Source of the DNA: Chiloscyllium plagiosum
Lineage: Eukaryota
Reading direction: 5' to 3'
Length of the DNA: 64,000 nt
Assembly: GCF_004010195.1 (NCBI RefSeq)
Contig: NC_057758.1
Coordinates: 8,840,014 to 8,904,013, forward strand
Below, one piece after another: positions 3,261 through 59,731 of this stretch. How positions within the stretch are numbered: position 1 is the stretch's first letter; each line of letters starts with the position of its first letter. The notes beneath the pieces were generated by a model. The model did no database searches, had not been told where the DNA came from, and worked only from the letters and a program-made list of their open reading frames with translations. Position numbers and translations under genes: made by a program.

Positions 3261-3352
3261 CCCAGTGACGTCAGCAAACTACATTTGGACCCAGTGACGT
3301 CAGCAAACTACATTTGGACCCAGTGACGTCAGCAAACTACATTTGGACCCAG
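3261..3352. repeat. Perfect tandem repeat, 29 bp x3 (cccagtgacgtcagcaaactacatttgga)
   Basis: Units at 3261-3289, 3290-3318 and 3319-3347, plus a partial cccag. Confidence 0.97.
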
Positions 3353-3488
3353 CGAAACAGGCCCTTCTTTGGCCTGTGCCCGAAACGTCGAATCTCCTGT
3401 TTCCTGGATGCTGCCTGACCTGCTGTGCTGTTCCAGCAATAAAGTTTCAACTTTGATCTCCAGCATCTGCAGACCTAACTTTCTCCTC
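3261..3488 (+). mobile_element. Young short PLE-derived insertion with 3x29-bp repeat head, 10-bp TSD
   Basis: TSD caccgccaat at 3251-3260 and 3489-3498. Absent at the paralogous site ~33421-33431. The 3' part is near-identical to the end of the PLE at 44752-44865. Confidence 0.9.
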
Positions 3489-16700: not shown

Positions 16701-16703
16701 ATT

Positions 16704-32400: not shown

Positions 32401-32939
32401 ATGCTGAGGTAGTGTAAACATTCAGAGCATAAGTGCTGAGGGAATGTGCACTAACATTCTTTCTCCTTTAACTCTACTGTCGATCTTTTTTCCTTTCTTC
32501 CCGCTTCGTTGTCATTTCACTTTTCTTGATATGAATTTCTACTGAATTTTCAATGATTTTTTTTCGCTGTTTCACTTCATTTACTAATGTCACAAATCCT
32601 CCTTTCCTCTTCTTTTCCTAGGTTGGAACGTTATGTTGCAGTTGTGTAGAGCATTGGTGACTCCGCACATGTTGACAGTTGATGACCTTGCTGTAGGAAT
32701 GATGTTATTAAAATGGAAAAAGATTCCACTGGAGATATACAAGGATGTTGACAGGACTCAGGCGTCTGGAGTACAAGGGGAGTTTGGTCTGACTAGGAAT
32801 ATTCTTCTTTAAAGCGTAGGGGGCTAAGGGGAGATCTTATACAAGCTGCTTACTGCAAATAGTTTCGATGGAGCAGACTTTGTAAGGTGTGTCCAGGCAT
32901 GATTCTTGAATCAATAAGTACATACATCATTCTGGAAGA

Positions 32940-33870: not shown

Positions 33871-36850
33871 ACAATCCCTCATGCTGCTTTAACAAATCTT
33901 TCAAATGCGTTCTTTGCTTCTGAGACAGATGTTTTTCCAACCTATCCCTCTTCCTCATTGTTTAACACATTTTGAAGCACATCAAATTCCACATCTTGAT
34001 TTGATACCTCACTCTGTTGGGCAGTAACTAATAACTGTTTACCCAGTTATTTCAGATAATAACCTGAAAGGAATATTCTCTGCCTCATTTTCTGATACGC
34101 TTCAACATATGGTCTCGTTTTTTTGTTGGAAGTCCATTACCCTTTTTGGACTAAACACTCCTTTCTCCCTCTGCTTGATCAGGCTTCTCCTGCACCATTA
34201 CATCAAACAGCGTGTTCGTTACTGAACCTATAATCCTTCATCATTTTGTTTAGCTTTTTCTTCGTGCTGTGACTTTAGTTAGTGGGAACTTGTTACGACA
34301 GAATCTTGGAAAATACATGATATTTTTTTTTAACTCCTTAATTTCCAAGTCTTCCTTGAGCTTCTCCCCAACAAGGTTTATTATTCTCAACTTGGACACT
34401 TCGACGTCGTTCTGAAGAACAAACTGCATTCGTGGAATTGACTATCTATCAACCACTGCCACTGTTACTTTCCCAGACTTATCCAATCTTATCTCACATT
34501 TTCTCCCCTTCTGTGTGACAAATTACCACTCTCCCGGTCAACAGATCAGAAACAACGCAAATTCGTTCCTCTCATAGTTTTGAGACTGCGAACATCCTCT
34601 GTCTCATAAAATCATAAATTCTTGCCTTGCCCCATCCTTTTCTTTCTGAGTAAGCTTTATGCACAGATGCGGAGTCTTTGTAGATATCAGGAACTAACTC
34701 CTTACCCAGCCCCTCTCTCGGCTGTGCATTCTCTGCAACTCCTCGACTTTTGTTGGGGTTTCCTTCACTACTTTCACTAATGCTACTGGCTTAGATTATG
34801 TTACCACGCGTTATCCCACACTGCCTTTCTTTGACTATAATTACTGTGTCTTAACATGCCCCAATTTACCACAGAGAAAATACATGAGGCCTTTCACCTC
34901 CTTTCCACCCTTTGGGCTTCTTTTCTTTTAACCTTTTCTTAAATACTTACAAATGTTCTCCAATATTTGCTTCATAATGTAATATCTCCCCGTCTCCCAA
35001 CCCATTTTCCTCACATCATGAAATTCTTTCCAGAAACATGTGATATGCCCCATCGTGTATTGACCTACGTACTCTGCTGCTCTTCCCAATTCCTGAACTC
35101 TCTATTCATCCACGTGAATTCCAACATTCTCTGGATGGATTTTTCAACTCAGCCAGCAGAATAATCTTCGTTAGAGCCTCATTGGTCTTATCCATGTTGA
35201 AGGCCTGCACTCGTCTATCAAAACGTGCTTAATTCTTTCAAACTCAAAATATCTCTGATCTAGTCCTTTCCTTTTGTTTCTGAACCCACTGTCTGTAGAC
35301 TTCCGGTACCAATTCGTTAGCACTTAAGTAGTCTGTTTGACGCCTCATCTAACACGATGCAAATACCTCAAGAGCTCTGTCCGCCAGTTTCGTCTGAACT
35401 GGAATTCTCTGTAATTCCTCGGATAATTCCACCTGCCTAACTAATGCGTCAAATTAAACAAAGAAAGCTTGAACATCTTTCTTATCAAAATGTAACAGCG
35501 CTTTGACATATTTATTTCCATCACTGGCTGTTCTTTTAATCTCCATCCTGTTAACGTGACTTTGCCAACAATGTCACAATTTCTCAATTTCAAATTCTGT
35601 CTCTTTCTCTCTCCGCTTTAATTATCTCTCTCTCTCTCTTCCTCTGTCCATTTGCTTAGCGAAGACCCTGCTCTCATTCTTTTACCTTTCTCTAAATCGT
35701 TGTTTAGTTAAGAACATTCTCTCTATTTCCTCTCTCTGTCTGTCTTCTTTTTTTCTATTTATCTTTCTCCCTCTTTTCTCTCCCTTTCTCTCTCTCCCTC
35801 AACGTTTCCTCTTTCTCTCTTTGTTTAATCTTTTAACTTTTCCTCAATGGCAATTGAAGGTTTTCTAACTCGACTGTTAGACGTTTCCCTGATACACCTA
35901 AGTGTTTGAATACTTCCCTTAGAATTCCAGCTTTACTTCTGTCCTACATTAAAAAGAATTATAATCACCTTCCTAATTCTAAAAGTAAGATATTTTCATT
36001 TCCTTCTAAGCTTTCTTCGGACATGTGGGTGCAAGTTTTAAGCCACAGAACCTCCTTAGCAGATTTAATAGCCATTTAGCTCATGTCTAATTGAACAAAT
36101 TGCAAGAAATCGAAATTTTAAAAATAAATCTCACCTATATTTTATCTAATGATCTAGGTGACTGTTCAGTAAATGTCCAAATCTACTTGATTTTCGTTCC
36201 CCACATCTATTCAAATTTGTACAAATCTCAGACTGGATCTGTCTAAAAGGTTCAAATGTCAGATGTGAGCACTGAAACGTTACGTCACGGGGTAAACCAT
36301 TCTGCAAATGTAAAGCAGACACACAGAAGCTCTCACCTCGTCTCGTAATCCGTTAAAGTATGAGTTACAAAACAACTCTTAAAATGTTGTTATTTAAACA
36401 AAATTATTATTTAACTCCAATTTGTAAAAAAAAACATTAAACAACATCTAACCTTCTTTGATGAATTTATTCAACTCCCACTCCACAACAATTTAGTGAT
36501 AGGATAAAACAGCCCAGATTAAATTTTACAAAACATTCACGTTTCAAAATCAATCAGCTGTGCAGATTATCTTATATCTTTGTATATTCTTTTCTTCGGT
36601 CTTCCGCTTCACAGATGTCATATGAAAAGATACCTTTCCGAGAGCGATTCAGCAGGCCCAGTCTCTTGGTGTTCTTTGCTGCTTTGGCCAACTGTTCAAA
36701 ATACCGATTTTATACCAGAAAACAATGGACCGTCTCATTAGTTGACGTCATCAAAATATTAGAATTAAAATTCTTTTGCGTTTTAGTATCTTGGGGCACA
36801 ACTTAAACTGATTGGCCGATTTCGAATTTGTTGCGTCCCACTGCAACTCA
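33870..36850 (-). mobile_element. Decayed Gypsy LTR-gag-protease (mirror of 1-2810); LTR approx 36280-36850
   Basis: Reverse complement of the left-arm element. TATAAAA on the minus strand ~36708-36714. Outer LTR boundary uncertain. Confidence 0.75.
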
Positions 36851-37099: not shown

Positions 37100-40000
37100 A
37101 CTGTGCTCCATTGGTCCATTTGAATTTTTTCCCCTCTCATTTTAACGCATGCATTCTATCTTTGGACTCCCCTGCGTCAGGTGGAAGAACTTGGGTGTTT
37201 ATTTTATTTAGGAGACTCCTGATGCTTTGAAAGTGGAAGATGTCAACTCTCACCCTTCTATGCTTGAGGTGAAAAATGATCCCAAACTATCCAAAATCTC
37301 CTTAAAAATCAGTGTACATCTTGTCAATCCTTTTGAACATTTTCCATTTTAATAACATGCTTTGCATTGTGGGGCGAACAGAAGTGTACATGGTACTTCA
37401 AATGCAACCTTTCCATTGTCTTGTACAGCCGTATTATGAAGTCACAACGTTTGGACTGAAATCACTGACCGATGAAGGCAAGAGTGTCGAATGTTTTGTT
37501 TTCACCAGTATGTGTACCTGTGGTAACAGTCGCAAGGAATAATATGCCAGGACGCGTCGGCCTACATGCCCGACAATGATGCCCAAGCTCCTCAAGTCAA
37601 CGATGTTCGTCCTGCCCGAATTTGTCTAAACAAAATGCAACACCTCGCCTTTCAACAAATTGCACTCCAACTGCCACTCCTAGCCTCATTGGTCAATTTA
37701 ATTAAACGACATTGTACTCTAAGATCTTTTTTTTTCACTATCCACTCTGCCAAACGTAGTGCTGTCAACCACAAACAATTCACATTATGTACATGAATGA
37801 CGAACAACAGTGGACCCTGTACAGATCCTTCTGGAACATTGCTGGTCAATGTCTAATCTGAATAGCAGCCCTCCACGAACATCTGCAGTCTCCTACCATG
37901 AAGACAATTTTGTATCCAATTGGCCAGCTCTGGTTTATCCAATGTGATCTTACCTTCCAACCAAAGTTACTATGTGGAACCTAGTCGAAAGCATTTGTGT
38001 AGTCCAAATGGAAAACGGTTGAAATTTTCTCTTAACGTATCTTGTTCGTCAGCTCTTCCAACAACGTAATCAAATCTGAGACACAACGTTTCGTAAAAAA
38101 ACAAAAATGACTAAGGAGAGAATCGGCTTTCTTAAAGATCAGCAAGGCCATCAATGTGTGAAGCCACAGTAGGTAGGTGAGATCCTAAATGAATATTTCT
38201 CATCAGCATTTCCCGTGTAGAAGCACATGAATACGATGGTAATTGGAGAGATAAATAGTGATGTCTTGAAAATACTCCACATTACAGTAAAGTAATCGCT
38301 TGAGGATTTGAAATGGATGAACACAAAAAGAAAGGGTGACTACGCTGAATCAGCCCTTACCTTCTAAAATGCATGTTTGTTCACACCTTCAGAATCTACA
38401 TTAACAATGTACCAAACACTAACGTCAGGCTCACCGTTCCATAGCTCGCTGGATTTTCCTTGTAGCTTTTTTAAAAAAATGACGACTCGTCAGTGACCAG
38501 CCTCTCATGCATGGATGTTCTTGATGGAAGTATCTCTCTGTCATGGGTTCCCTAATTCTTTCCAGAGCTTTCCCATAATGTCAGCTGTCAGTGATTTCCT
38601 TACATTTGTCCATTTCAAATCCTCCAGCGAGTCCATTTCTGTGAACGTGGACGATATTCAAGACTTCACGGTTTATTTCTCCAATTGCCATAGATTCCAT
38701 GTGCTTCTCCACTAACGCGAAATATTCATATATGATCTCACCTATCTGCTGTGGAACTACACATTGATGGCCTTATTGATCTTGAATGGGTCTATTCGCT
38801 CCCTAATCATTCGCTTGCTGTTAATGAACTTGTAGATTCTCTTCGGAATCTCTTGAACCAAAGCTATCTCCAAACATATTGCAGGTGTCGGGATTTTCCT
38901 CTTATATATGCTCCTACAATTTCGATGTTGTTAAAGGGATATACGTGATCCTCGTCGCATGTACAGTCAAACGACGCCTTTTCTTAGATTAGGTTCTCTG
39001 CAGGGTGGAAACAGGCCCTTAGGCCCAACCAGTCCACAATGACTCTCCGAAGAGGAACCCATCCCGGCCATTTCCCTCTGAATAATGCACCTAATATTAT
39101 GGGCAATTTAGCATGGTCAATTCACCTGACCTGCACATCTTTGGACTGTGGGAGAAAACCCATGCAGACACGGAGAGAATGTGCAAACTCCACACCGACA
39201 GTCACCCTCGGCTGAAACCGAATCTGGAACCCTGGCGCTGTGAGGCAGCAGTGCTAACCACTGAGCCACAATGCCGCCTGCGTTCTTTTTTTTTCACCAG
39301 TGTTTCAATTTATTTAAATATCCAAAGTCTCCTACTCCTTCCAGCCATGGCTTTCACACTAATCGGAACATGTGGACCATAAACTCGCGTTATCTTGCTC
39401 TCAGAAGCCACCCACTTGCTAGGTATCCATTTACCTGAAAACAGCTTTCCAAACAAATTATAAAATTTCGTATCTAACAACATGGAAATTGGACTTACCC
39501 CAGGCTAAAAAATTAGCTTGTGGACCAGTCCAACTCTTTTACATAATTGCGTAATGTTTAATAGAGTTAATGTCACTGGTCATAAACTGCTACCGCACTA
39601 ACACCTCAGTCGTTTGCCTTGCCTGATTACTTAAGAGATATTCGCATTTGCCGTTCCTCTAGTATTGTCGATTGATCAATTTTCTTGAACACACTTGAAG
39701 AATTCATTCCCAAAGATGATCTTAACACTTGAAATTACAATCCATGTTTGGAAAGATAAAATCTCCAACTATTTCACCTGCATTATACTTATCGTTGTCT
39801 GTGATTTTCCTTCCTCGATATTCCACTGACTATTAAGGGACCCGATGTGCAATCCCATCAAAGTGATCACACACTTCTTATTTCTCAATTTCACCTAGAT
39901 GGGCTCATTTGACGATCCCAAAGGAATACCCTCTCTAAATACTGCAATGAAGGTTACCAAAATGAAGAACGCCACTCCTCCTGCTCATTTCCCTCCCCTT

Positions 40001-40200
40001 GTATTCTTCTTGCAACATTTCCATCCTGGAGCATTGAACTTACAGTGTTATCTCTTCCTCAAAGATGTTTCTGTAATAACTATGATGTGCCTATATTATC
40101 ATGCATATACTTGTTCATCTTCAATACTTATAAGGCCTCTCGCGGTAACTAACGAAATGCAATGAAATAAATGAAGTTTTATTGATAACTCTCACTCCGT
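37100..40200 (-). mobile_element. Old fragmented CR1 LINE (endonuclease and RT relics)
   Basis: VPEGSVQGPLLFVI (37652-37849); KFINSKR..RE.I relic ~38800; VGDF..FP relic ~39750. Interrupted by a SINE. Confidence 0.7.
38985..39278 (-). mobile_element. HE1/V-SINE (older subfamily)
   Basis: Reverse-strand tRNA head and V-domain. Paralog at 53825-54139. Confidence 0.9.
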
Positions 40201-40659
40201 GACACGCCAAACTCTTGCCTGTCTTTACTGCTTACTGCTATACCAGTACCCACGTTATTTGTGTTCATCGACCTCGATGTTACTAGACATCTGGTCATAA
40301 TTAAACAACAAAAAAACAAAGAGATTTACAGCACAGAAGCAGGTCCTTCGCCACCACCACTCCCCAAGACAGAGTCGAACGCGATCTACTCTCGAAAAAC
40401 TTCGCCTAATTTTAAGTATGTGTATTCCTCTGCTCAATGCCCATTCAAGTTTTTGTCGATATGCATAAAACTGACGTTATCGTGCATCCCACTACCACCT
40501 CTGCTGGGAACGCATACCAGGCACTTTCACCCTCTGTGTAAAGAACGATCTGCACATATCTCCCTCAAACTTTTTTCCTCTCAACTTGAACTTTTGACCG
40601 CGAGTAATTGAGTCGATCACTCTGTGGGAAAAAAAGCATTATGCTGTCCACCCTGTCTT

Positions 40660-40871
40660 GGTTAAAGATTGCATGACATCAGGTTATCATCCAACAGGTT
40701 TATTTGAAAGCACTAACGTTCATCACGCTGCTTCTTCATCAGGTTGCTGACCTGCTGATGAAGGAGCAGCGCTCCGAAAGCTACTGCTTCCAAATAAACT
40801 CGTTGCACTGTAACCTTTTGTTGTGTGATTTTTAAATATGTAAATCCCAGTCCAAGATGACAGCTGCAAAT
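40660..40871. mobile_element. Fold-back short PLE-type element (AGCT family) with 9-bp TSD
   Basis: TSD caccctgtc on both sides. Inverted arms caacaggtttatttgaaagcac / gcttccaaataaactcgttg. Paralog at ~55499-55711. Confidence 0.8.
40755..40783 (+). ncRNA. Minimal hammerhead ribozyme core motif
   Basis: CTGATGA-a-GGAGC-agc-GCTCC-GAAA-GCTA. Stem I poorly preserved. Confidence 0.6.
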
Positions 40872-43028
40872 CACCCTGTCGACACCTCTTGTGATTTTGC
40901 AGACCTCAGTCAGGAAAGCCGTCAACCTCTGTCTTTTTAAAGAAAACATCCCCAAACTGCTCAACCTCTGTTCATTTCTAACGCCCTCCAGAGCATGCTG
41001 AACCTCCTCTGCACCCTCTAAAAAGCATCCACATTATTTTGGTAATGTCACGACCAGAAACGTGGTCGAACCAAAGACTTATACAACTGCAATATGACCT
41101 GCAAACACTTTCACTAAATACCCCATCTGATGAATGTAAGCATGTCATATGCCTTCTTGATGATTGTGTCGACCTCCGTTTCTCCCTTAATGGCACATGG
41201 ACGTGAACACACAGATCTCCCTGTACATCAGTATTTCCTTGGACTTCAGCATTTACTGTAGAGTTCGCTCTTGAATTGGATGTTACAAAATGCATCAGCT
41301 CGCATTAATGCGAATTGAACTCCATGTACACCATTTCCAGTCAACATTCTAAAGTATATTCTGCTGCATTCCCTGTCCGTCTCCTTCACTATCTGCTATT
41401 CCACCAATCTTAGTGTTATTTGCAAATTTGCTAATCAGACCACCTATATCTTCCTCCAACTCACTTATATATTTCACAATCAATAGTGGATCCCAGTGTG
41501 GATCCCAGTGGAACACGACTGTTCATAGTTTTCAATTTTATGGAACTCCATTCCCTTACTACCCTCTGTCTCCTGCTAACCAAACCATTCTTAATGCATC
41601 CAGCAAGTATATACTTGACCACATGCATCTTCGTTTTCTGCAACAACCTACCAATGGGAACCTTATAAAACGCCTGATTTGAGTCCATGTATATGACTTT
41701 GCCACTTCATCAAATGATTTTATGAATTTGGTAAGTCATGACCTTTCCTGAACAAACATATGATGCCTATCCCTGATAAGACTACTTTCTTCCAAAAGCA
41801 AACAGACCCTATTCCTCAATACCTTCTCCAGCAACTTCACTAAGTCTGACGCCAGGCTAATCGGTCTATAATTACTTGAATTACCCCTGCTACTCTTCCT
41901 AAACAACTCGGCAGCATTAGCAATTCTGCAGTCCTCTGGCAGCCCACAAGTGTTCAAGGAAATTGTAAAGACATGTGTTAAGCCTCCAACTATTTCCTCT
42001 CTCACTGCCTTCAAGAACCTGGGACAGATCCCATCCGGACTTGGGAACTTGTCCATCTTAATTCCTTTCAGAATTCTGAACATTTCCTCCCTATGTAAGC
42101 TGCCTTCACCGAAAGTAATCATTCGTCTATCCTTAAACTCAATATCTGTTATTTCCCTCTCCTCATTAAATACTGGTGCAAAGTGCTCATTAAGAATTTC
42201 TCCCATTTTCAATAACTCCATGCATACCTTTCCTCCTTTGTTCATCTGTGGGCCGAACTTTTCTTTAGTTGACCTCTTGCTCCTCATAGATGAATAAAAG
42301 ACTTTGGGATTTTCCCTAACATCGGTTGATAATGATATTTCATAAGCACCTTGTAGCCCTCGTAATTCCTCGTTTCAGATTGTTCGTCCTTGCTCAATAT
42401 GTTTCGAAAGCCTTGTTTGTTTTCAGTCGCCGAATCCTTAGGTATGATTTATTTTTCCTCTTGGCTAGACTCACAATTTCACCTGTCATCCATAATTTCG
42501 TAACCCTGTCGTTACTCTCTCTGATTTTCTCAGACAAGTGTCTGCCGTGCACCTTCATAAGTCTAGCTAGAAAAGCTTGCAACATATCAAAAGTGGATTT
42601 ACCTTCAAACTGATGTTCTCAAACCACATTCCCCAGCTCCAGCCTAATTTTCCTACAGTTGGCATTCCCCAATTTTGCACTCTTCTTTGTGGACCACGCT
42701 TGTGTTTGTCGATGACATTTTAAATTTACAGAATGCTGATCACTGTTTTCCAAAGTAACTCCCTACTGAAATATGAGCCACCTTGCCGGGCTCATTCACC
42801 AACACTATGTCGAGTATGGTCCTTTTCGAGTTGACATATTTGCATACCGCTGTAGAAAACTTTTCTGGATGCTTCTTTCAAATTCTGTTTGATCTTGACC
42901 TCTAACATTTAGGGAATCCCGTTCAACAATAGGAAAATTAAAATCTCCAGTCACCATTAACGTCATTCTCCCACATCTTTCTATAATCTGTTTACATATT
43001 TGTACTTCTCTCTCACACTCACTGTTGG

Positions 43029-43072
43029 NNNNNNNNNNNNNNNNNNNNNNNNNNNNNNNNNNNNNNNNNNNN
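43029..43072. other. Assembly gap (44 N)
   Basis: Run of N. Confidence 1.
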
Positions 43073-44049
43073 TCCATCACTGGCAATTTCACATCATGTG
43101 TGTCGGATGATTTCTGTCCCACCATCTTGATAGACGAATTCAAACGCTTCAAAATACTTCTGGGCAAACTTTCCGTCAGGGTATTGATAGTTGTCTCGTT
43201 CCAGTGCAAACTTTCCTCTTGTAATGGTTTGTTGTGTTTCAGAGGAGAATCCAATGATCGAAAAATATGTATCCCCGCCCTCTGCACCGGTTCCTCAGCG
43301 ACAATTCAACTGCCCCACTCTCCTCTTTAAGTCTCATGAGCACTGTCACCAGAGATTACTATGCTAATAGTCCATCTTTTAAAACTCTGCCAGACCTGAT
43401 ACGTTTCTTATTAATTTTGTTGACACCAATATGTCCAACAGATTTTAGAGTGCAAGGTAAACTTCGAAAATTTGCTCAACCACTTTGAGACGGCCTCGAT
43501 CCTGGCGCCATGAGGCACTCATCGTCCTGGAGTCTCGATCACACCGCAGAAGGGCGTGTCTCAGCCCCAGCTAGTGTGTACCATGTCGCAATTGCCCCTT
43601 GGACTTCACCATACACTGCTTTACAGCAGAGCTAGTCATGATGTCAAAGATCTGGATGCTGTTGATATTGCACCCAAATGGATATTTTGCCCCAACAATA
43701 CAAATTATGTACTTGTTTTAGATTTGGAACATGAGTATTCGGTTCTACCTGACAATCGGTCCTCATCGTCACCCATCTACCTGAGTGCACCTGTAGTGTG
43801 ACCAGCTCCAAATTGTGCCTTCTGTTCGTTCCCCAGTGCATCCAAGTGTTCCTCCAAATTATCCATGCAGTCTTTAAGGAAAGGCATTTCATTGATTAAC
43901 CGAATAATCGATTATACAAACGAAACAGTGCTCGCCCATCTCATTCAGATATTTGTGATTCCCCTATACTGAGGTCTACACTAAATACAATTCATGAGAT
44001 TCAGACGTTGTCTTATTCAAACATAAATAAGACAGACAAGACGTTACCG

Positions 44050-44174
44050 GTGAAAGTGAAGACTGCAGATGCTGGAAATTCGAGTCGAGAGTAAAGTGCT
44101 GGAAAAGCACAGCGGATCAGGTAGCATTCGAGGAACAGGAGAGTCGACATTTCGGGCAAATGTCCTTCATTAGG
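44050..44174 (-). mobile_element. Short PLE-derived element truncating GPCR pseudogene
   Basis: Family body. Hammerhead relic ctaatgaaggacatttgcccgaaatgtc; the paralog at 59038-59161 reads ctgatgaaggacatttgtctgaaatgtt. Confidence 0.8.
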
Positions 44175-44742
44175 TTTCTGCGGGATTTCGTGCTTACTAA
44201 AATATGCCTGAAAGTGAAAACGTTCAGCAGTATAATCAGCAGAAATGGAAGACATGGGGTTAGTAAGTTGTGGAGGAACTCCACTATTACACAGACCAGA
44301 GAGAACTGAACATTGTCCAGTACAACACAAAATCATGGAACTTTCATGCGCTGATACTGACTCGTTAATGCAAAGTACCAGAAAATGTTCTTCATGCTGC
44401 TCACCATAGTCACTGTTCCAGGACCACGGCAGCCGTTTTCTCACTATAATATTTACTTCTCAGTTTCTGATAATGTATGGCCACAAATCGATCAAATTTG
44501 AATGTGACCGTGAACTAGACAGATCAGTCAGTTCATGCATAAAGCAGGACAACGTGGATGTTGCATATGGTCAGTTCCAACAGGGAACGAAACGTTACTT
44601 GATAAAAGATCAACAGATGCCTCAAATAAGATCGTGAAAAATGACCAGTAGATTTGAAACTGACGTAACCATAGATAACGTGTGATGCAATTCGAAAGAC
44701 CACATATTCTGCGAGGTGGGATCCTAATTGTGGGAAGGTTAG
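44172..44742 (-). pseudogene. GPR139-like GPCR pseudogene exon, lineage B
   Basis: ANLPTI..RICGLSNCITRYL/..LLVIFHDLI/..ICNIHVVLLYA*TD*SV*FTVTFKFDRFVAIHYQKLRSKYYSEKTAAVVL/..MKNIFWYF..EFLHNLLTPCLPFLLIILLNVFTFRHILVSTKSRRN. Acceptor-like ag|CTAAC. Confidence 0.9.
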
Positions 44743-44751
44743 CTCTGAGGA

Positions 44752-46201
44752 GAAAGTGAGGTCTGCAGATGCTGGAGATCAAAGTTGAAACTTTATTGCT
44801 GGAACAGCACAGCAGGTCAGGCAGCATCCAGGGAACAGGAGATTCGACGTTTCGGGCACAGGCCCTTCTTCAGGAATGAGCAGAGAGTGTTCAGCAGGAG
44901 AAGATAAAAGGTAGGGAGGAGGGACTTGGAGGAGGGGAGTTGGAAATGTGATAGGTGGAAAGAGGTCAAGGTGAGGGTGATAGGTCGGAGTAGGGTGGAG
45001 GCGGAGAGGTCAAGAAGAAGACAGCAGGTCAGGAAGGCGGTGCCGGGCGGGAAGGATCCGGCTGAGACAAGGTGGGGGGAGGGGGGATGAAAAAACTCAT
45101 CACCCCAGGGGACCTCCCATCCACCGCCTCCAACCTCATAGTCCCACAACCCCGAACCGCCCGTTTCTACCTCCTGCCCAAAATCCACAAACCTGACTGC
45201 CCCGGACGACCCATCGTCTCAGCCTGCTCCTGCCCAACCGAACTCATCTCGGCATACCTCGACACGGTCCTGTCCCCATTAGTCCAAGAACCCCCCACCT
45301 ACGTCCGTGACACCACCCACGCCCTCCACCTCCTCCAGGATTCCCGCTTGCAAGTGTTGCACCTCCTGCGGTTGCAAGGGAAGGTGTCGGGAGTGGTGGT
45401 TGGGTCGGTGGGGGGTGTGGATCTGACAAGGGAGTCGCGGAGGGAGTGGTCTCTACGGAAAGCTGATAGGGGTGGGGAGGGAAATATATCCTTGGTGCTG
45501 GGGTCTGTTTGGAGGTGGCGGAAGTGACGGCGGATGATGCGCTGTACATGGAGATTGGTGGGGTGGTAGGTGAGGACCAGTGGGGTTCTGTCCTGGTGGC
45601 GGTTGGAGGGGCGGGGCTCAAGGGCGGAGGAGCGGGAGGTGGAGGAGATGCGGTGGAGGGCACCGTCGACCACGTCGGGGGGTAAATTGCGGTCCTTGAA
45701 GAAGGAGGCCGTCTGTGTTGTGCGTATTTTGAACTGGTCCTCCTGGGAGCAGATGCGGCGGAGACGAAGGAATTGGGAGAATGGGATGGCGTTTTTACAG
45801 GGGGCAGGATGGGAGGAGGTGTAGTCCAGGTAGCTGTGGGAGTCGGTTGGTTTGTAGTAGATGTCCGTGTTGATTCGGTCGCCTGAGGTAGAAACGGAAA
45901 GGTCTAGGAAGGGGAGGGAGGAGTCCGAGGCTGTCCAGGTGAATTTGAGGTCGGGGTGGAAGGTGTTGGTGTAGTGGATGAACTGTTCAACCTCCTCGTG
46001 GGAGCACGAGGTAGCGCCGATACAGTCATCAATGTAGCGAAGGAAAATATGGGGGGTGGGGCCAGTGTAGTTGCGGAAGCTGGATTGTTCCACATACCCT
46101 ACGAAGAGGCAGGCATAGCTGGGGCCCATGCGGGTGCCCATGGCTACTCCTTTTGTTTGGAGAAAGTGGGAGGATTGGAAAGAAAAGTTGTTCAGGGTGA
46201 G
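44752..46201 (-). mobile_element. Young rearranged Penelope-like (Neptune-type) element, 15-bp TSD; copy 1 only
   Basis: ORF 45299-46141 MGTRMGPSYACLF..FLRYIDD..LPFLD..YKPTDSHSYLDYTSSHP..LRRICS. TSD ggttagctctgagga at 44737-44751 and 46202-46216. Empty site at ~59725-59739. Confidence 0.95.
44842..44877 (-). ncRNA. Minimal type-I hammerhead ribozyme motif in PLE terminus
   Basis: Minus strand ATTC-CTGAAGA-a-GGGC-ctgt-GCCC-GAAA-CGTC-GAAT: stem I ATTC/GAAT, stem II GGGC/GCCC, palindromic ACGT, GTC cleavage triplet. Confidence 0.8.
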
Positions 46202-46877
46202 GGTTAGCTCTGAGGAAAGGATATCAGCATGTTAAGAATGCAGACAACTTGATGGTATGATACCATTCCAAATTAAGATTGACTGAATTGTGCTTAGTAT
46301 ACATACAGTGCAAACATATTGATATGGAATAATTGCATTCTAAGAGGTTAGTTGTCTTTCGTGGTATTGTCCAGGGTTCATGACATGGAAAGCGGAAAGA
46401 ACAGAACAAGAACCTTCTGTTCAGAGGATAGCTACACAATCGAAAGTTATACGTGATTTGATGGCCAGAGTTTGAGGTGAAGATCCATGACTCAAGTTGA
46501 TAGTCTGTAGTCATATTTAGCGCAACCAACTCAGCATTTAGATAAGACATAGCGCAATCATTCTACCTCCCTCAAGTGCAGAAGCTTTAATTTCCCTGCA
46601 ACATATTTTGTCGACCAGTATTTTTTGCTAACTCCAAGATCATAGCTTTTTGTCATCCTCATTTATTGCTTCCCTATAGCAATCGTGGCTGACCTGATCA
46701 TTCTCAACATCGGTTTCCCTCCTTTTCCCCATGACACTTCCTTCAAGGACACCAGCCCACGATACAATTAATGACACTGACTTGCCTGTCCTGTGTAGTG
46801 GAAAATTCCACAAAAGTCATGAATTTTGAAGAATTCCACAGTAACCACGGTCTAGGTATGTTGCAAAGAATACGTCC

Positions 46878-47160
46878 CCAACACAGTGCCATTCACTTCC
46901 CCTCTTCCTCTTCATTTACTCCTGACTAATGCAAGTTACCTACACGTCTCTGCACACTATAGGCAAATTATCATTTCCAATTAAACTGAACTGAACAGCT
47001 TTGCATATTGGGAGGAAATCGAAGCAGCCGGCGGAAATCCATGCAGACACGAGAGAAAATGGCACACTCCACAAAGCCAATCACCCGAGACTAGGATCGA
47101 ACCTGGGTCTCTGCTAATGTGAGGCAGCTGTGCTGAGGATTGACCCACTGTGCAGACCCA
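46878..47160 (-). mobile_element. Old HE1/V-SINE, 3' end deleted
   Basis: Degenerate SINE body. The complete paralog is at 62950-63306. Confidence 0.75.
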
Positions 47161-49539
47161 TAATTAGCCTGTTCACTGCTTCCTGCGTTGTTATGAATAA
47201 AACTCATTGCATTCATAAACACTTCTGAACTGCGTTCGTTTCTCATTGGAGAGTGTAATAGAAACACACAGAAATATCAGATGCTCTAAAATCTACCGTA
47301 TTCGGATTAATAGAGGATGTCCATCTGGTCCTGCATTCTCAAAAACAGGAAAAATTACCTCTGCATATTTACACTGTCAAGTCCTCTAAGAATGTTCTAT
47401 GCACCATTAAGGCCTCATTGCGTTCTTCGGAGCTTCAATGAGTACCGGATCAACCATTTTTAAAACTCTCCTTATAAGACAGTAATTCTACACCCGGGAT
47501 CAAATCCGACCCTTCATAATGTCAACAGCAAGTTTTATCTTCAAAGATTGAATAACGTTCAATGCCATTTGCGACTCTTCAGTTGCTGAGGCAGGCCATT
47601 TTCAAATGAAAAATTTCTGGCCAATATCCAAACTTGTATTGTCAAGTGGCAATTAACATGCACACAACGCAAAAGATTGGCTAGGCGATCGCCAACAGTA
47701 GAATATGTAACCACAGCCTCTTGCAATTAAAACGTGTAACAATCACAGAGTCACTCACCGTTAAAATACTTGGGATTACCAATGACCAGCAAATGAGGTG
47801 GACTTGCCATATAAGGACAGTGTCAAATGGAGGCGAAAAATAGTGTAACAAGCAACTAACCTCCTAACTCATAAATCTCTACAGCGCGGAGTCAGGCTCT
47901 TTGGCTCAATGTGGCCCATACTGGCCAAAATGTTCAGTTACACTGACTCCCTTTCCCTGCACCTGATGCATATCCTTCCAATTGTTACCTATTTGGACAC
48001 TTGTCCAAATATCTTCTAAATGGTGTTAATGCGCACATCGCAGATATTTCCACTGGCAGCCTTCCTATAAACGAGTTGGACCTCAGGTTCCCTTCATTCT
48101 TTCCCCTGTACCATTACACTGATGCCCACTAGTCCTCGATTCCTCGAACCTGGGGAAAAAACAACTGACGGTGTTCACCCTATCCATGCATCTCACGTTT
48201 CGCACTCTTCACTGAGATCCCACCTCAGTCTCCTGTTCTCTAAAGAAAATAATCCCGACTTGCCTAGCACTCCACTACCTTTTCAAGTTTGCACCCACGG
48301 ATGAGCGATAAATGCTTGCCATCGTGCAATGCCCAAAACCCATGAATGACGTGAAGCTGTAATCTACCCTTCTTGACAATGTATTTCATTTTCCCCCTTA
48401 CAAATCACCCCTCCCTCGGGGGAATACTTGTTTCCCTCGGATTCCCTCTCATCCTCCGTCTATCAAGTTGAAATTTATACTGCCTTGTTATTGAACATTC
48501 GACTAAGGAGAGTACATGCTTGCAATCCACACTGCCCATGTTCATCATAATCTTGTTGCAGTCAAATTTCAAGATGATTCACTCAGCATCCAAAGTTTCA
48601 TTTTCAGCTTCGACAATTGCATTTAAACTGGTTAGAGAAACCTTGTGAAAATCAACACAACACTTCACCAAACAAAGGAAAACATGTATTTTATGTGACT
48701 CTGTCAGACAGTCTTCAGCATTTACACACCGACCAAATTGAAAATTAATTCCATTCATTTCTAAATTAAGCTCAGCTGATGACTGTACAACAAGGCATGG
48801 ACAGGCTTATGAGCAACTCCCAGTCATTGATGGCTTCATCATGTTTGACAGACCCTTTCATTTTCCTTCTTGAGGGTTTTTATAAAGCAGTCTGGATTCA
48901 AGGGTAATTCTTCTTGTTCCTAGGATGCTGCCTGAGCTATTGTGCTTTTGCAGCGCCACTCTATTCTGGAGTCTGGTTCCCAGCATCTGCACTTCTCACT
49001 TTTAACAGTTTATTCATAGATATTTGCCAGCTGCAATCTATTCAACGTTTATCAGTTAGACATTTATCTGTCACTTACGCACCTTATAAAATTCATTACC
49101 CATGTCAAAATACAACGTAAATTGAGTTTACCTTATTGTTGCAATATCAGTACCAAGAAAGTTATGAGGTTAGCCACAATATTAGAATTCTTCAGTTGAC
49201 GAAATCTGAGCAGGTTTTTTTTTCCTTTATCATATTCAGTGGACACCCTTATCGTTATCCCGAGGTGTCTTAAGATCTGTTCATTTTTCGTGCACTCCTA
49301 TGCCTGCCAGTCTCTGTACCGATGTCTCAGTTCTATCTGCCATGATAGTAGCGCAGTTTATTTTAATGGCTGAGACTGGTGTGTTCTGAATTTTATTTTT
49401 GGGATCTCTTCTCTAATGCTTTTAGCGATATTTTTCGGACATAACTGTATGTGTAACTACTTCAGATTCACTATCTACCACTGTCATAAGTGTAGGTATG
49501 TTCGCAAAACGGAAAGTTGATTTGCACACGTCTTTTTCC

Positions 49540-50630: not shown

Positions 50631-53061
50631 AGCCCTCGTTTTCCTGCCAGGGCAACACTCAGACAAAACGGTCTCAAGATTAACCATGTTATGATAACGG
50701 ACGTCCAAAACAAACCATGCAGGTACAGACAATTCACTGCATGCCAATAATTCCCATTTTGAAAAACAATCAATCGGAAGTGGACCATGACAGTCAAATA
50801 GGTCATCACCAGAGGACAAAATCGAGCTTCACACAGAAAGAGAACGGCACTACCAGAAAAAATGTCGAAGCAAACCAACAGCAGCTAAGACAACACGACA
50901 AACACTTGGCGAAGGAACCACTCGAACAGACAGGTTACATACACAGGAAAAATCCATACTAGCCAAGGGGCTCAACTACAGGAAGATAAATAGAACATAC
51001 TTTCTAGGTGCACAAGTATATACATTCAGAACTAACAGACTGACCGAAAAGAAACAGCAAACAGTTGGATAAACTATTATACCCTGACGAAAAAGGAAAA
51101 GACGAATGAACAACGGCAACACCACATGGAGAGAAGCCCTAAAAATACTCAAAATTAACAAGGATAGAAGCAGAGCACCAGCAGACAAGGGCAGAATGAC
51201 GGTTATTTTGGAAAAGGCCGAACATATTCAAAAAGCAGAGGAACTACTTGCTGCTAGGACCATCTACCTACAGAACCAGTGTGACCCCACGCTTCTGCTA
51301 ATCAATAAAATTAACAACATTCAACAGGACCTCCAATAAATGGACAAATAATAAGTACTGACTTCTAAGGATGAAACCAAGAATCAACAACACCACAATA
51401 TTTTACGGAGTACCAAAAGTACACGAACCAGACATAACATTTCGATACATTTTGGCACTGACTGGAACTCGATTGTGTAAACTGGCGAAATAACTTGAAC
51501 AAAACCTAAAACATGTCATCTGCGGATCAAAGCAATCCATAGAATCATGACAGGGATTCCGATATAACATCAAGAACGTAATGATAGACAAGGACGAAGC
51601 AATAGTCTTATTTGACATAATGGCACTGTTCACTTTAATTGACAAAGCTCAAACCAGATAGGCAATGGCCAATCTCCAGGATTAGCAGAACGGACAAAAT
51701 TATGGGGACTCTATCAACAAGGATGGAATACTTAAATTACTAGCCCTGTGCTTGACGACATACTTCACATTCAACAACCACATGCAGGAACAAGGCGAAA
51801 GGGAGGACTGCAGATGCTGGAGATTATAGTCGAGTGTGTAGGGCTGGAAAAGCACAGCAGCTCCAGCAGTACCCAAAATGAAGGAAAATTGACGTTTCGT
51901 ACAAACACCCTTAATCTTTCCCAATGATGGCCTTTTGCCTGAATCATCGATTTCCTGCTCGTCAGATGCTGTCTATCCTGCTGTGCCTTTCCAGCATCAC
52001 ACTCTCGACCCATATGTAATAATAGATCAATGGAATATCCTACAGGCACACCCACCTCTTGGCTATTAGCAGAAGCAGTGATTCAAAGACTGGAACAAAC
52101 AACCTTTCCACAAAAGCAACCCAAGCTCTGCATCAGATATGTGAACAACACTTCTGTTCTCATTAAAACAAAGGAAATTGCGAACGCACGCCAACTTATC
52201 AACACCATGGTCACAGAATCAGGTTTCCGATTGCGGAGGAGACCAACAATCAACTCCCATTTCGAGATGTTGTTGTTGAAAGAATACAAAACGGTGAATT
52301 CACCACACAAGGGTATAGCAAAGCCGCGCACAGCGACCAGGCCCTGGACTCCAACAGCAACAACATCAACACAGAGAATAAAAGTTGCATGTGGACACTG
52401 TTCAAAAGGGCTGCATCACACTGCAGCACTCCCAACCGACGAAGTGAAGATGAAGAACACCTCCACAGAGTATTCACCAAAAGCGGATATCCCACAACTA
52501 CATTCGCAGATGTCCAACAGACAACACGACAAAGACATGCCACAACCTAAATCAGTAGCTACTCTACCTCAAATAAAAAACTTCAGAACTGATAATTAGA
52601 TTTTGCCGATTACTGGGATTCATGACATCCCAGACACTGACATCCACGCTCAACCAACAACTCACCAGGAGAAAAGAATCTATACCCATCTTGTGCAAAA
52701 CAGACGTAATTTACAATATGGTATACGAAGACTGCAATCATACGATGAAGGACAATCAGGCAGACAATTAGCAATCTGCATCCACGCACACCAAGTGGTC
52801 AGGAAAAGCCAGATGTCCCAGATAGCCAAGCACACAGGGGACAAGGATCACAAATTCAATTGAGACAACTCAACAGTTATAGGAGATGAAAAACAGAGGG
52901 ATGTGGCATAGTTTCTAAAAGCATGTCACTCATCCACGGACTCCATCACCAAACATAGACCTGAACCCAATCCATGGGTCACTACAAGGAACTACTGGAA
53001 CTGGCAATTGGAAGCATTAGGAACGGAACCAAACAATTTTGAGAAAACACAGTACAGCAAA
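50630..53061 (+). mobile_element. Decayed Poseidon-type PLE (RT and GIY-YIG endonuclease relics)
   Basis: PADKGRMTVIL, FYGVPKVH, ILKLLALCLTTYFTFNN, LLAEAVIQRLE..IRYVNN, VIY..DC..GQSGRQLAICIH.H. Confidence 0.8.
51795..52008. mobile_element. Short fold-back PLE-derived element nested in Poseidon RT
   Basis: Inverted arms gtcgagtgtgtagggctggaaaagcacagcag / ctgctgtgcctttccagcatcacactctcgac. It splits the RT between FTFNN and the following motif. Confidence 0.8.
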
Positions 53062-53561
53062 NNNNNNNNNNNNNNNNNNNNNNNNNNNNNNNNNNNNNNN
53101 NNNNNNNNNNNNNNNNNNNNNNNNNNNNNNNNNNNNNNNNNNNNNNNNNNNNNNNNNNNNNNNNNNNNNNNNNNNNNNNNNNNNNNNNNNNNNNNNNNNN
53201 NNNNNNNNNNNNNNNNNNNNNNNNNNNNNNNNNNNNNNNNNNNNNNNNNNNNNNNNNNNNNNNNNNNNNNNNNNNNNNNNNNNNNNNNNNNNNNNNNNNN
53301 NNNNNNNNNNNNNNNNNNNNNNNNNNNNNNNNNNNNNNNNNNNNNNNNNNNNNNNNNNNNNNNNNNNNNNNNNNNNNNNNNNNNNNNNNNNNNNNNNNNN
53401 NNNNNNNNNNNNNNNNNNNNNNNNNNNNNNNNNNNNNNNNNNNNNNNNNNNNNNNNNNNNNNNNNNNNNNNNNNNNNNNNNNNNNNNNNNNNNNNNNNNN
53501 NNNNNNNNNNNNNNNNNNNNNNNNNNNNNNNNNNNNNNNNNNNNNNNNNNNNNNNNNNNNN
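53062..53561. other. Assembly gap (500 N)
   Basis: Run of N. Confidence 1.
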
Positions 53562-53824
53562 AATATTCATTTATGATCTCACCTATCTGCTGTGGAGCCA
53601 CACATTGATGGCCTTATTGATCTTGAATTGGTCTATTCGCTCCCTAATCACTCGCTTGCTGTTAATGAACTTGTAGATTCTCTTCGGAATCTCTTGAACG
53701 AAAGCTATCTCCAAACCTATTGCCGGTGTCCGAATTTTCCTCTTATATATGCTCCTACAATTTCGATGTTGTGAAAGGGATATTCGTGATCCTAGTCGCA
53801 TATACAGTCAAAAGACGCCTTTTC

Positions 53825-54139
53825 TTAGATTAGGTTCTCTGCAGTGTGGAAACAGGCCCTTTAGCCCAACCAGTCCACAACGACTCTCCGAAGAGTAACC
53901 CATCCCGACCCATTTCCCTCTGACTAATGCACCTAATATTATGGGAAATTTAGCATGATCAATTCACCTGACCTGCACATCTTTGGAATATGGGAGAACA
54001 CCAGAGCACCTGGAGGAAACCCATGCAGACACGGGGAGACTGTGTAAACTCCACACAGACAGTCACCCTCGGCTGGAACCGAATCTGGAACCCTGGCGCT
54101 GTGAGGCAGCAGTGCTAACCACTGAGTCACTATGCCGCC
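53825..54139 (-). mobile_element. HE1/V-SINE (paralog of 38985-39278)
   Basis: tRNA head and V-domain on the minus strand. Confidence 0.9.
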
Positions 54140-55144
54140 TGCGTTCTTTCTTTTCACCAGAGTTTCAATTTATTTAAATATCCAAAGTCTCCTACTCCTT
54201 CCAGCCATGGCTTTCACACTAATCGGAACATGCGGACCATAAACTCGCGTTATCTTGCTCTCCGAAGCCACCCACTTGCTAGTTATCCATTTACCTGAAA
54301 ACAGCTTTACAAACAAATTATAAAATTTCGTATCTAACACCATGGAAATTGGACTTGCCCCAGGCTAAAAAAATAGCCTGTGGACCAGTCCAACTCTTTT
54401 ACATAATTATGTAATGATTAATAGAGTTAATGTCACTGGTCATAAACTGCTACCGCACTAACACCTCAGTCATTTGCCTTGCCTGATTACTCAAGAGATA
54501 TTCGCATTTGCTCTTCCTCTAGTATTGTCGATTGATCAATTTTCTTGAACACACTTGAAGAATTCATTCCCAAACAAGATCTTAACACTGGAAATTCCAA
54601 TCTATGTTTGGAAAGATAAAATCTCCAACTATTTCAACTGTATTATACTTATAGTTGTCTGTGATCTTCCTTCCTCGATATTCCACTGATTATTGAGGGA
54701 TCCGATGTGATCACACGCTTCTTATTTCTCAATTTCACCTAGACGATCCCAAAGGAATACCCTCTCCACATACTGCAGTGAAGTTTACCAAAATGAAGAA
54801 CACCACTCCTCCTGCTCATTTCCTTCCCCTTGTATTCTTCTTGCAACATTTCCATCCTGGGGCATTGAACTTACAGTCTTATCTCTTGCTCAAAGATGTT
54901 TCTGTAATAACTATGATATGCAGTCCGATATTATCATGGATATACTTGTTCATCTTCAATACTTGTTAGGCCTCTCGCGGTAACTAACGAAATGCAATGA
55001 AATAAATTAAGTTTTATTGATAACTCTCCCTCCGTTACACGCCAAACTCTTGCCTGTCTTGTCGATTTAGCTTACTGCTGTACCAGTACCCACGTTATCT
55101 TTGTCCATCGACCTCGATGTTACTCGACATCAGGTCATAATTAA

Positions 55145-58845: not shown

Positions 58846-59159
58846 TGAAAGGAGCAGTCTTTAAGGAAAGGCATTTCATTGATTAACCGAATAATCGATT
58901 ATACAAACGTAACAGTGCTCGCCCATCTCATTCAGATATTTGAGATTCCCCTATACTGAGGTCTACACTAACTACAATTCATGAGATTCATACGTTGTCT
59001 TATTCAAACATAAATAAAACAGACAAGACGTTACCGGTGAAAGTGAAGACTGCAGATGCTGGAGATTCGAGTCGAGAGTAAAGTGCTGGAAAAGCACAGC
59101 GGATCAGGCAGCATTCGAGGAACAGGAGAGTCAACATTTCAGACAAATGTCCTTCATCA

Positions 59160-59731
59160 GGTTTCTGCGGGATTTCGTGCTTGCTAAAATATGCCTGAAA
59201 ATGAAAAGGTTCAGCAGTATAATCAGCAGAAATGGAAGACATGGGGTTAGTAAGTTATGGAGGAACTCGACTATTACACAGACCAGAGAGAACTGGACAT
59301 TGTCCAGTACAACACAAAATCATGGAACTTTCATGCGCTGATACTGACTCGTTCATGCAAAGTACCAGAAAATGTTCTTCATGCTGCTCACCATAGTCAC
59401 TGTTCCAGGACCACGGCTGCCGTTTTCTCACTGTAATATTTAATTCTCAGTTTTTGATAACGTATGGCCACAAATTGATCAAAGTTGAATGTGACCGTGA
59501 ACCAGATAGATCACTCAGTTCATGCATAAAGCAGGACAACGTGGATGTTGCATATGATCAGTTCCAACAGGGAACGAAACGTTACTTGATAAAAGATTAA
59601 CAGATGCCTCAAAATAAGATCGTGAAAAATGACCAGTAGATTTGAAACTGACGTAACCATAGATAATGTGTGATGCAATTCGAAAGACCACATATTCTGC
59701 GAGGTAGGATCCTAATTGCGAGAAGGTTCGC
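59160..59731 (-). pseudogene. GPR139-like GPCR pseudogene exon, lineage B copy 2
   Basis: Near-identical to 44172-44742; CGLSNCITHYL..FTVTFNFDQFVAI..LLTPCLPFLLIILLNLFIFRHILASTKSRR. Confidence 0.9.

What the first reader, a model, noticed from the sequence alone, without database searches (positions are those of the whole stretch)
44842..44877. Intact minimal hammerhead ribozyme in a recently inserted Penelope-like element
Seen: the minus strand reads AUUC CUGAAGA A GGGC CUGU GCCC GAAA CGUC GAAU. The catalytic core, stem I and stem II are all present, but stem III is reduced to the palindrome ACGU. Known: PLE termini carry minimal hammerheads thought to cleave as dimers through a palindromic stem III. 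Inference: this is a potentially active, dimer-dependent ribozyme in a young shark PLE family, whose insertion postdates the segmental duplication.
Basis: partly seen in the sequence, partly recalled or inferred. Interest (0 to 1): 0.7.

Follow-up and report, generated by a model that had tools for sequence, protein, structure and literature searches.

The report
Lone hammerhead in shark jumping gene
The motif is a real, intact copy of the tiny pair-dependent self-cutting RNA that Penelope-like jumping genes are already known to carry, but it sits alone in a broken insertion and is most likely an ordinary, inactive leftover.

Summary
Observation confirmed. Minus strand 44877-44842 is a complete minimal type-I hammerhead: core, extra base before helix II, G10.1-C11.1, 4-bp helices I and II, loop-less ACGU helix III. 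A strict descriptor hit 1 of 300 shuffles.

It lies in the 3' pseudo-LTR of a 1.45-kb insertion of a Neptune-type Penelope-like element (RT 81% identical to a Chiloscyllium protein; CX4CX2C linker). A 15-bp target duplication and an empty site in a 5.3%-diverged paralog show it postdates the duplication.

The copy is dead: 5'-truncated, internally inverted, no endonuclease, one ribozyme, no intact partner in cis. It has at least 1% private substitutions, so 'recent' is relative and an intact 36-mer needs no selection. No reads covered its flanks or piled at the cut site (one weak library). Covariation among window copies was no better than shuffles. Cleavage is untested.

This kind was described in 2014 (PMC4209133), and this scan has noted it several times on other shark DNA. 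One loose end: 8 of 9 family insertions here end in or beside the ribozyme, often at its 5' edge rather than at the cut. Interest is low.

The parts
44842..44877 (-). Minimal type-I hammerhead: helix I 5' strand 44877-44874, core C3-A9 44873-44867, extra A 44866, helix II 44865-44854 (4 bp, 4-nt loop), G12-A14 44853-44851, palindromic helix III ACGU 44850-44847, C17 44846, helix I 3' strand 44845-44842
   Evidence: sequence; descriptor and shuffles; folding
44748..44845 (-). 3' part of the pseudo-LTR downstream of the cut (94-98 nt). The family 3' end lies at about 44748, so its last 4-5 nt match the target and overlap the duplicated target.
   Evidence: loose ends of family reads and contigs at 44747-44750 (table 7); window copies
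44878..45092 (-). Pyrimidine-rich 3' UTR/pseudo-LTR segment upstream of the ribozyme
   Evidence: sequence; continuous family depth; a Stegostoma protein runs from GIY-YIG through a similar Pro/Ser-rich stretch into residues that fit the hammerhead's reading (inference)
45093..45349 (+). Inverted piece of the RT N-terminal region (85 codons, open), opposite in sense to the rest of the element
   Evidence: translation matches P0002; family contigs join about 45340 to about 46203 on opposite strands (table 5)
45350..46201 (-). RT core motifs, thumb and linker (about 284 codons, no stop), cut off at the CX4CX2C linker zinc finger (45376-45350); GIY-YIG endonuclease missing
   Evidence: homologue search, alignment, Pfam RVT_1 E 0.016 below cut-off; family continues past 46202 (table 7)
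44737..44751 (.). Target-site duplication, left copy (15 bp; 11 bp if the 4-nt overlap with the element end is given to the element)
46202..46216 (.). Target-site duplication, right copy (15 of 15 identical)
59715..59731 (.). Empty paralogous site with one copy of the target (approximate coordinates)
44052..44177 (-). Older short copy of the same family 700 nt downstream on the same strand; core broken (G5>A, C15.2>U), helix II mismatched; also present in the paralog (59039-59164). It is the only same-strand partner within about 15 kb.
3261..3488 (+). Sister insertion of the same young subfamily (2 differences in 113 nt): ribozyme cut off in helix II, 10-bp target duplication, empty site in the inverted duplicate

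Best explanation
The motif is the minimal type-I hammerhead of the 3' pseudo-LTR of a Neptune-type Penelope-like retrotransposon of a carpet shark. SHOWN: the anatomy, the host element, insertion by a target-duplicating event after the local duplication, and that this copy is 5'-truncated, internally inverted and lacks the endonuclease and any second ribozyme. INFERRED from the literature: in the parent's tandem or pLTR-ORF-pLTR transcript, two copies pair their ACGU palindromes into a 4-bp intermolecular helix III and swap helix I strands. Each core then cuts the other copy after GUC, slowly and probably with help from the element's protein. INFERRED for this locus: the ribozyme is a passenger. 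It is intact because the copy is only about 1% diverged, and without a partner in cis it is not cut to any meaningful extent.
For: All minimal-hammerhead hallmarks listed in PMC4209133 are present. Host RT: 81% to a Chiloscyllium punctatum protein and 71% to a Stegostoma tigrinum protein; many homologues carry GIY-YIG. Target duplication and empty site. It is the only intact family ribozyme among 9 independent family insertions in the window. Among the 36 displayed variant rows outside the terminal unit, 14 show at least 97% of DNA-contig depth with another letter, so at least 1.06% private change; at that rate a 36-mer stays untouched with probability about 0.68 (arithmetic). The active homodimer evaluates at -13.1 kcal/mol, against -14.2 for two monomers and -18.3 for a misfolded dimer, so free trans pairing is not favoured. 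Literature: single motifs did not cut and dimers cut weakly (PMC4209133); the anole PLE ribozyme cut only with protein and was not needed for insertion in vitro (PMC11167929).
Against: Cleavage was not measured. The family is very abundant in RNA (3,476 of 12.96 million records laid, both orientations), so trans partners exist in cells. An older neighbour 700 nt downstream could close helix III (4 of 4 pairs, one G-U) and 3 of 4 helix I pairs. The absence of flank-spanning RNA reads rests on one single-cell polyA library of which about 2% was read. Clade placement rests on a motif and similarity, not on a tree.
Confidence: 0.8

Rival explanations
1. This copy does cut RNA in vivo. A read-through minus-strand transcript pairs its core with the older copy 700 nt downstream (cutting that copy), or with abundant family RNAs in trans.
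For: Intact core; the heterodimer can form helix III (4 of 4) and part of helix I (3 of 4); family RNA is plentiful.
Against: Helix I of the heterodimer has an internal mismatch (2+1 bp); the neighbour's own core is broken; no reads on the flanks and no start or end pile-up (tables 2 and 6; weak test); no host exon found among 70 scanned ORFs of 36.7-54 kb, where the only real hit was an RT remnant; published activity is low even for matched dimers.
Confidence: 0.1
2. For the family as a whole, the motif matters less as a catalyst than as a structured landmark where reverse transcription of uncut RNA stops or folds back. This would make about 130-nt ribozyme-plus-tail units and inverted pairs. 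It is compatible with the best explanation for this locus.
For: 8 of 9 family insertions in the window lose homology between -33 and +12 of the cut. The 5 whose ends are fixed by target duplications or inverted junctions end at about -33, -32, -24/-21, -21, -20, -20, -18 and -3/-1, none clearly at +1. Depth drops 3.5- to 24-fold just upstream of 44874 in three runs; 161 RNA reads have loose ends at 44877; joints involve 44877/44878. Uncut RNA was the main template for the anole PLE (PMC11167929).
Against: PLEs are 5'-truncated in general (PMC8557442); the depth step may partly reflect subfamilies whose upstream UTR is under 85% alike; 3 of the 8 short copies have no proven 5' end; the sample is small and only the top rows of the read tables were shown.
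Confidence: 0.35
3. The ribozyme has been exapted at this locus, for example to process a host transcript.
For: Intact motif.
Against: Intactness is expected by chance (about 0.68); absent from the paralog; no host gene found nearby; cannot fold helix III alone.
Confidence: 0.02
4. A chance look-alike.
For: No Rfam match; folding energy not unusual; covariation among window copies not above shuffles.
Against: 1 of 300 shuffles; sits exactly where PLE hammerheads are known to sit; a second, unrelated PLE family in the window has the same core with different helices.
Confidence: 0.01

Closest known systems
Minimal hammerheads (min-HHR) in the pLTRs of metazoan Penelope-like elements (Cervera and De la Pena 2014, PMC4209133; read parts 1-2 of 4: results, discussion, start of methods)
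   Same: Type-I core, no loop 3, palindromic 15.2-16.2, extra base between 9 and 10.1, G10.1-C11.1, 4-bp helix I, location in a pLTR, mostly scattered as single motifs of truncated PLEs; reported there for Xena, Poseidon and Neptune PLEs of fishes, coelacanth and Xenopus.
   Different: Host is a shark (not named in the parts read); helix II is 4 bp rather than the 7-8 bp of the Schistosoma families; N7 is A where most window copies have U.
Hammerhead of the anole Poseidon element PAc (Frangieh et al. 2024, PMC11167929; read parts 1-2 of 4: main text, start of methods)
   Same: PLE pLTR ribozyme; optional 30-40 nt 'tail' (window copies end either at about +94-98 or at about +62-69); no RNA reads starting at the cut.
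   Different: PAc is Poseidon clade (no linker zinc finger) and its ORF starts in helix II; here the host has the CX2-5CxxC linker and the copy is non-autonomous. Activity was measured for PAc, not here.
Neptune-clade EN+ PLEs (Craig et al. 2021, PMC8557442, and Arkhipova et al. 2013, PMC3846280; passages only)
   Same: RT, then linker CX2-5CxxC, then GIY-YIG in homologues; 5' truncation, inverted partial copies, target duplications, tail.
   Different: This copy has an internal inversion of an RT piece between thumb/linker and 3' UTR instead of a simple 5' inverted pLTR; no tree was built.
Non-LTR retrozymes (Cervera and De la Pena 2020, PMC7229834, passages; Li et al. 2026, 10.64898/2026.07.22.740005, part 1 of 5 plus passages)
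   Same: Type-I hammerhead in short PLE-derived units; reported in one chondrichthyan genome. A few head-to-tail joins of a 132-137 nt family unit appear in DNA contigs.
   Different: This locus is not a tandem array and has one ribozyme.
Small dimer-cleaving PLE hammerheads (Lunse, Weinberg and Breaker, RNA Biol 14:1499; not readable here, seen only as a title and as cited in PMC6765202)
   Same: By title and the review's summary: palindromic very short helix III, dimer cleavage.
   Different: Cannot be compared in detail; text not seen.

Membership tests
PLE minimal type-I hammerhead (min-HHR) | Conserved core C3-U4-G5-A6-N7-G8-A9, G12-A13-A14, A15.1-U16.1, H17 | tested here: met
PLE minimal type-I hammerhead (min-HHR) | Helix III reduced to a palindrome (15.2-16.2 complementary, no loop 3) | tested here: met
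   ACGU at 44850-44847
PLE minimal type-I hammerhead (min-HHR) | Extra nucleotide between 9 and 10.1; G10.1-C11.1 pair; helices I and II | tested here: met
   A at 44866; 4-bp helices; helix II probability 0.65-1.0
PLE minimal type-I hammerhead (min-HHR) | Located in the pLTR of a PLE | tested here: met
PLE minimal type-I hammerhead (min-HHR) | Covariation of helices across family copies | tested here: inconclusive
   13 window rows (paralog pairs and truncated arms included): 62.9% of cells paired, 320 of 500 shuffles as high; one A-U for G-C swap in helix II. Genome-wide table showed only 40 of 417 variant rows.
PLE minimal type-I hammerhead (min-HHR) | Self-cleavage as a dimer, not as a monomer | not testable with these tools
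   The dimer fold is topologically possible (-13.1 kcal/mol) but is not the minimum; no end pile-up in one unsuitable RNA library.
Neptune-clade Penelope-like element | PLE-type RT followed by a C-terminal GIY-YIG endonuclease | tested here: met
   Met for the family through homologues: P0044 (51% identical) has RVT_1 and GIY-YIG above cut-off; shark P0003 (71%) has GIY-YIG at E 0.0019, below cut-off. The endonuclease is missing from this copy.
Neptune-clade Penelope-like element | CX2-5CxxC zinc finger in the RT-EN linker (shared with Nematis) | tested here: met
   CX4CX2C at 45376-45350, aligned with the same motif in P0044 and P0085 (definition)
Neptune-clade Penelope-like element | Phylogenetic placement with reference Neptune RTs rather than Nematis | not tested
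   No labelled reference set at hand; vertebrate PLEs were Neptune or Poseidon.
Neptune-clade Penelope-like element | Insertion signature: target duplication, 5' truncation, inverted parts | tested here: met
Non-LTR retrozyme | Tandem repeat with at least two consecutive complete hammerheads | tested here: not met
   one intact motif, no tandem (definition)
Rfam hammerhead families | Score at or above gathering threshold | tested here: not met
   0 matches at gathering in 64 kb; 0 at E up to 10 in 44700-45100

The most novel reading that the evidence does not exclude
In this shark family the ribozyme defines a mobile unit. A roughly 130-nt element running from the first base of helix I to the pLTR end is copied preferentially from uncut RNA, because reverse transcription stops or folds back at the hammerhead. 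It has spread as a SINE-like or retrozyme-like non-autonomous element, and occasional head-to-tail dimers of the unit are the only places where the ribozyme can close and cut. Insertion ends would then record hammerhead folding in the germ line.
Probability: 0.25. Interest if true: 0.45.

Novelty: new member of a known kind. Interest (0 to 1): 0.12.

Why it matters
As a single motif it matters little: it is one more copy of a class described in 2014, in a family with very many copies. What the PLE hammerhead does in vivo is still open (PMC8557442 calls it unclear; PMC11167929 found it dispensable in vitro). This copy does not settle that, but the family could: a genome holding so many insertions bounded by target duplications allows a direct count of whether 5' ends fall at the cut site (cleaved template) or at the ribozyme's 5' edge (uncut template).

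Tried and rejected
No whole genome is held for this window, so no genome-wide census could be made.

Collection scans for family copies gave only chance matches: 4 metagenome loci matching 25 nt and nothing more, 1 bacterial MAG locus, not examined further, 0 viral contigs.

Rfam: nothing. Covariation on 13 window rows: not above shuffles.

Idea that short copies begin at the cleavage site (+1), which would be in vivo proof of cutting: rejected for this window. One arm starts at -1 in one paralog's reading and -3 in the other's; the other fixed ends lie at -18 to -33.

RNA: no RNA holder listed. Of the four runs laid, X22 gave 0 reads (no test), and X21 is single-cell polyA, unsuited to 5'-OH ends; it showed no start or end pile-up.

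Host gene: no convincing Pfam hit among 70 ORFs of at least 62 aa in 36.7-54 kb (70 of the 83 listed; the other 13 lie in or across the element or were covered) or among 15 long ORFs, apart from RT remnants. Short exons would be missed.

Literature: 'shark + Penelope + hammerhead ribozyme' gave 1 general review (listing only); 'shark genome/Penelope/Neptune/transposable elements/Chiloscyllium' gave 1 genome paper (listing only); two further searches gave 0. The library lacks most subscription papers, and the Lunse paper could not be read. Supplements of PMC4209133 were not opened, and those of the 2026 preprint are closed; either may list shark motifs.

Earlier scan notes by sequence: none.

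Full report
OBSERVATION. In hammerhead numbering it has a 4-bp helix I, the core C3-A9 with N7 = A, one extra A, a 4-bp helix II closed by G10.1-C11.1, G12-A14, the palindrome ACGU in place of helix III, and C17 at 44846. A loose pattern found 2 sites in the window against 0.08 expected. A strict descriptor found the same 2, while 1 of 300 dinucleotide shuffles had any hit; that descriptor was written with the motif in view. Helix II is stable in all five contexts folded (0.65-1.0); intramolecular helix I is not (0.5 falling to 0). Overall folding energy is ordinary, and Rfam has no match.

THE HOST ELEMENT. The motif lies in an insertion at 44752-46201 flanked by a perfect 15-bp duplication. 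The window holds a second copy of the region (about 38.7-47.3 kb against 53.5-63.4 kb; 371 mismatches in 7042 columns, 5.3%), in which the site is empty and the target occurs once. Read in the element's sense (minus strand) the insertion has three pieces: 46201-45350, an open stretch of about 284 codons covering RT core, thumb and linker and ending in a CX4CX2C motif; 45349-45093, a piece of the RT N-terminal region lying inverted; and 45092-44752, the 3' UTR/pseudo-LTR with the ribozyme 94 nt from the end. The best named homologues are from Chiloscyllium punctatum (81%, 76%) and Stegostoma tigrinum (71%) (120 of 222 hits listed, only proteins of 495-2000 aa searched). Full-length relatives continue into a GIY-YIG domain. 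The linker zinc finger marks Neptune and Nematis, and vertebrate PLEs fell into Neptune or Poseidon in a recent survey, so I file it as Neptune-type by motif; no tree was built. In family contigs the RT N-terminal piece joins the core piece on the opposite strand (2 of the 15 displayed joints) and the family runs on past 46202, so the inversion and truncation belong to this copy. The family's 3' end lies at about 44748, overlapping the target by 4-5 nt (table 7). The copy has no start, no endonuclease and one ribozyme: it cannot be autonomous.

HOW YOUNG. It is younger than the duplication, as claimed. A sister insertion at 3261-3488 differs at 2 of 113 nt, has its own 10-bp duplication and is absent from its duplicate (5.0% diverged). 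The sister shares N7 = A (in a small fold-back), the helix II loop and the 3' helix I strand, so these are subfamily traits. Of 417 variant rows in the read lay only 40 were shown; 14 of the 36 outside the terminal unit have at least 97% of DNA-contig depth with another letter. That is at least 1.06% private change in 1,324 nt. At the epaulette-shark rate of 7e-10 per site per generation (PMC10587355, passages; interval 1.4-14.1e-10; the species here is not established) this is of the order of 10^7 generations; copying errors or a rare source element would lower it. At 1.06%, a 36-nt motif escapes all change with probability about 0.68, so being intact is no sign of selection.

ABUNDANCE AND EXPRESSION. 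One DNA run laid 85,933 contigs at 85% identity or more, 10,433 of them at 99% or more. Summed depth is 5-6 million on the last 130 nt, 1-2 million on much of the RT and about 90 on the unique flanks. The tool warns that this is no copy number, but the family is clearly very large. In one single-cell polyA run (about 2% read), 3,476 of 12.96 million records were laid, in both orientations, 207 at 99% or more. None lay on the unique flanks, and there was no pile-up of starts or ends. The second raw run gave nothing and is no test. So family sequence is present in RNA; this locus is not shown to be transcribed; the cut site was not properly tested.

CAN IT CUT? Helix III cannot close within one copy. 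Two copies can pair ACGU with ACGU and swap helix I strands without a pseudoknot; this fold scores -13.1 kcal/mol, less favourable than two monomers (-14.2) or a misfolded dimer (-18.3) (nearest-neighbour energies ignore core contacts and Mg2+). Of 9 independent family insertions in the window (paralog pairs merged) only this one has an intact motif. The nearest same-strand copy, 700 nt downstream and older than the duplication, has a broken core but could serve as substrate with 4 of 4 helix III pairs and 3 of 4 helix I pairs; I give this about 10% together with trans pairing. In the literature, a Schistosoma minimal motif did not cut alone and cut weakly as dimer or trimer (PMC4209133). The anole element's ribozyme cut only with the element's protein, was not needed for insertion, and no RNA-seq reads began at its cut site (PMC11167929). 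A review citing Lunse et al. says such ribozymes likely work as dimers (PMC6765202, passages); I could not read that paper. Covariation among the 13 window rows was no better than shuffles; these rows include decayed paralog pairs and arms truncated inside the motif, so the test is weak and neither supports nor refutes.

A LOOSE END. Eight of the nine insertions are short and lose homology between -33 and +12 of the cut. Five have ends fixed by a target duplication or an inverted junction: a unit from -33 to +98 with a 6-7 bp duplication; three inverted pairs with arms starting at about -24/-21 and -3/-1, -20 and -20, -32 and -21; and the sister at -18 with a fold-back of -25..-13. None starts clearly at +1. 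In the read lay, depth falls 3.5-, 6- and 24-fold just upstream of the motif in the three informative runs; 161 RNA reads have loose ends at 44877, the first base of helix I; two RNA-type contigs join the tail to 44877/44878 on the opposite strand; and DNA contigs show head-to-tail joins of a 132-137 nt unit (2 contigs, plus one row with 5 letters between). This fits copying of uncut RNA with stops or fold-backs at the ribozyme, in line with PMC11167929 and with the self-priming inferred in PMC3846280 (passages). It could also be ordinary 5' truncation plus subfamily divergence upstream. The second arms of the inverted pairs end about 30 nt short (+62 to +69), the known PLE 'tail' signature.

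COMPARISON AND NOVELTY. It works like, and by every sequence feature I could test is a member of, the PLE minimal hammerheads of Cervera and De la Pena, who already reported them in Neptune, Poseidon and Xena elements of fishes and scattered by the thousand as single motifs. It is not a retrozyme array. I found no paper naming this shark family, but a 2026 preprint screened one chondrichthyan with canonical and minimal models and found retrozymes, and unseen supplements may list more. This scan's earlier notes record the same kind at least four times in other pieces of this genome and in other sharks; they are unchecked and agree with a reading I had stated before seeing them.

VERDICT. Real motif, right class, insertion timing right; activity at this locus is unlikely and untested. 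New member of a known kind; interest 0.12.

Noticed in passing
window 60128-60580: A second post-duplication PLE insertion of another family, with a 14-bp target duplication, absent from the paralog near 46600. It is an inverted pair. The right arm carries its own minimal hammerhead at 60465-60504 (+), with a longer, once-mismatched helix II and U at position 17; the left arm has lost the core's 5' half; the right arm has an extra AC-rich tail of about 35 nt. Poseidon-like by its C-terminal residues (recalled, not tested).
   Followed up: partly
window 3261-3352: Inside the target duplication of the sister insertion, three identical tandem copies of a 29-nt unit with no match elsewhere in the window precede the fold-back and the pLTR piece; they are absent from the empty site. 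Possibly reiterative copying of a captured template by the telomerase-related RT, or later slippage.
   Followed up: partly
window 7865-8050, 16708-16910, 21736-21936, 29277-29466, 51797-52009: Head-to-head inverted pairs of the family's terminal unit whose junctions lie in or next to the ribozyme; one arm of each pair is about 30 nt shorter at the 3' end.
   Followed up: partly
window 1-19700 against 20566-36678, and 38700-47300 against 53540-63450: A large inverted duplication (about 5-8% diverged) and a direct duplication (5.3%), each with a run of N in or beside it (20066-20565, 53062-53561); a 193-nt family links both blocks. No host exon was found in the part scanned.
   Followed up: partly
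window 44843: About 70-80% of family reads and contigs have U at helix I position 1.3 where this subfamily has A; this copy pairs it with U at 2.3, which may be a compensatory swap. The partner position was not among the displayed rows.
   Followed up: partly
window 12631-14308 against 14309 onward: A near-perfect tandem copy (99% over the 300-nt reference, spacing 1678 nt) in one arm of the inverted duplication; recent duplication or assembly artefact.
   Followed up: no
protein P0003 (Stegostoma tigrinum), C-terminus: The annotated protein runs past the GIY-YIG domain through the 3' UTR and ends in residues that fit a reading of the family's hammerhead, which suggests the motif is shared across carpet sharks (inference, DNA not seen).
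   Followed up: no
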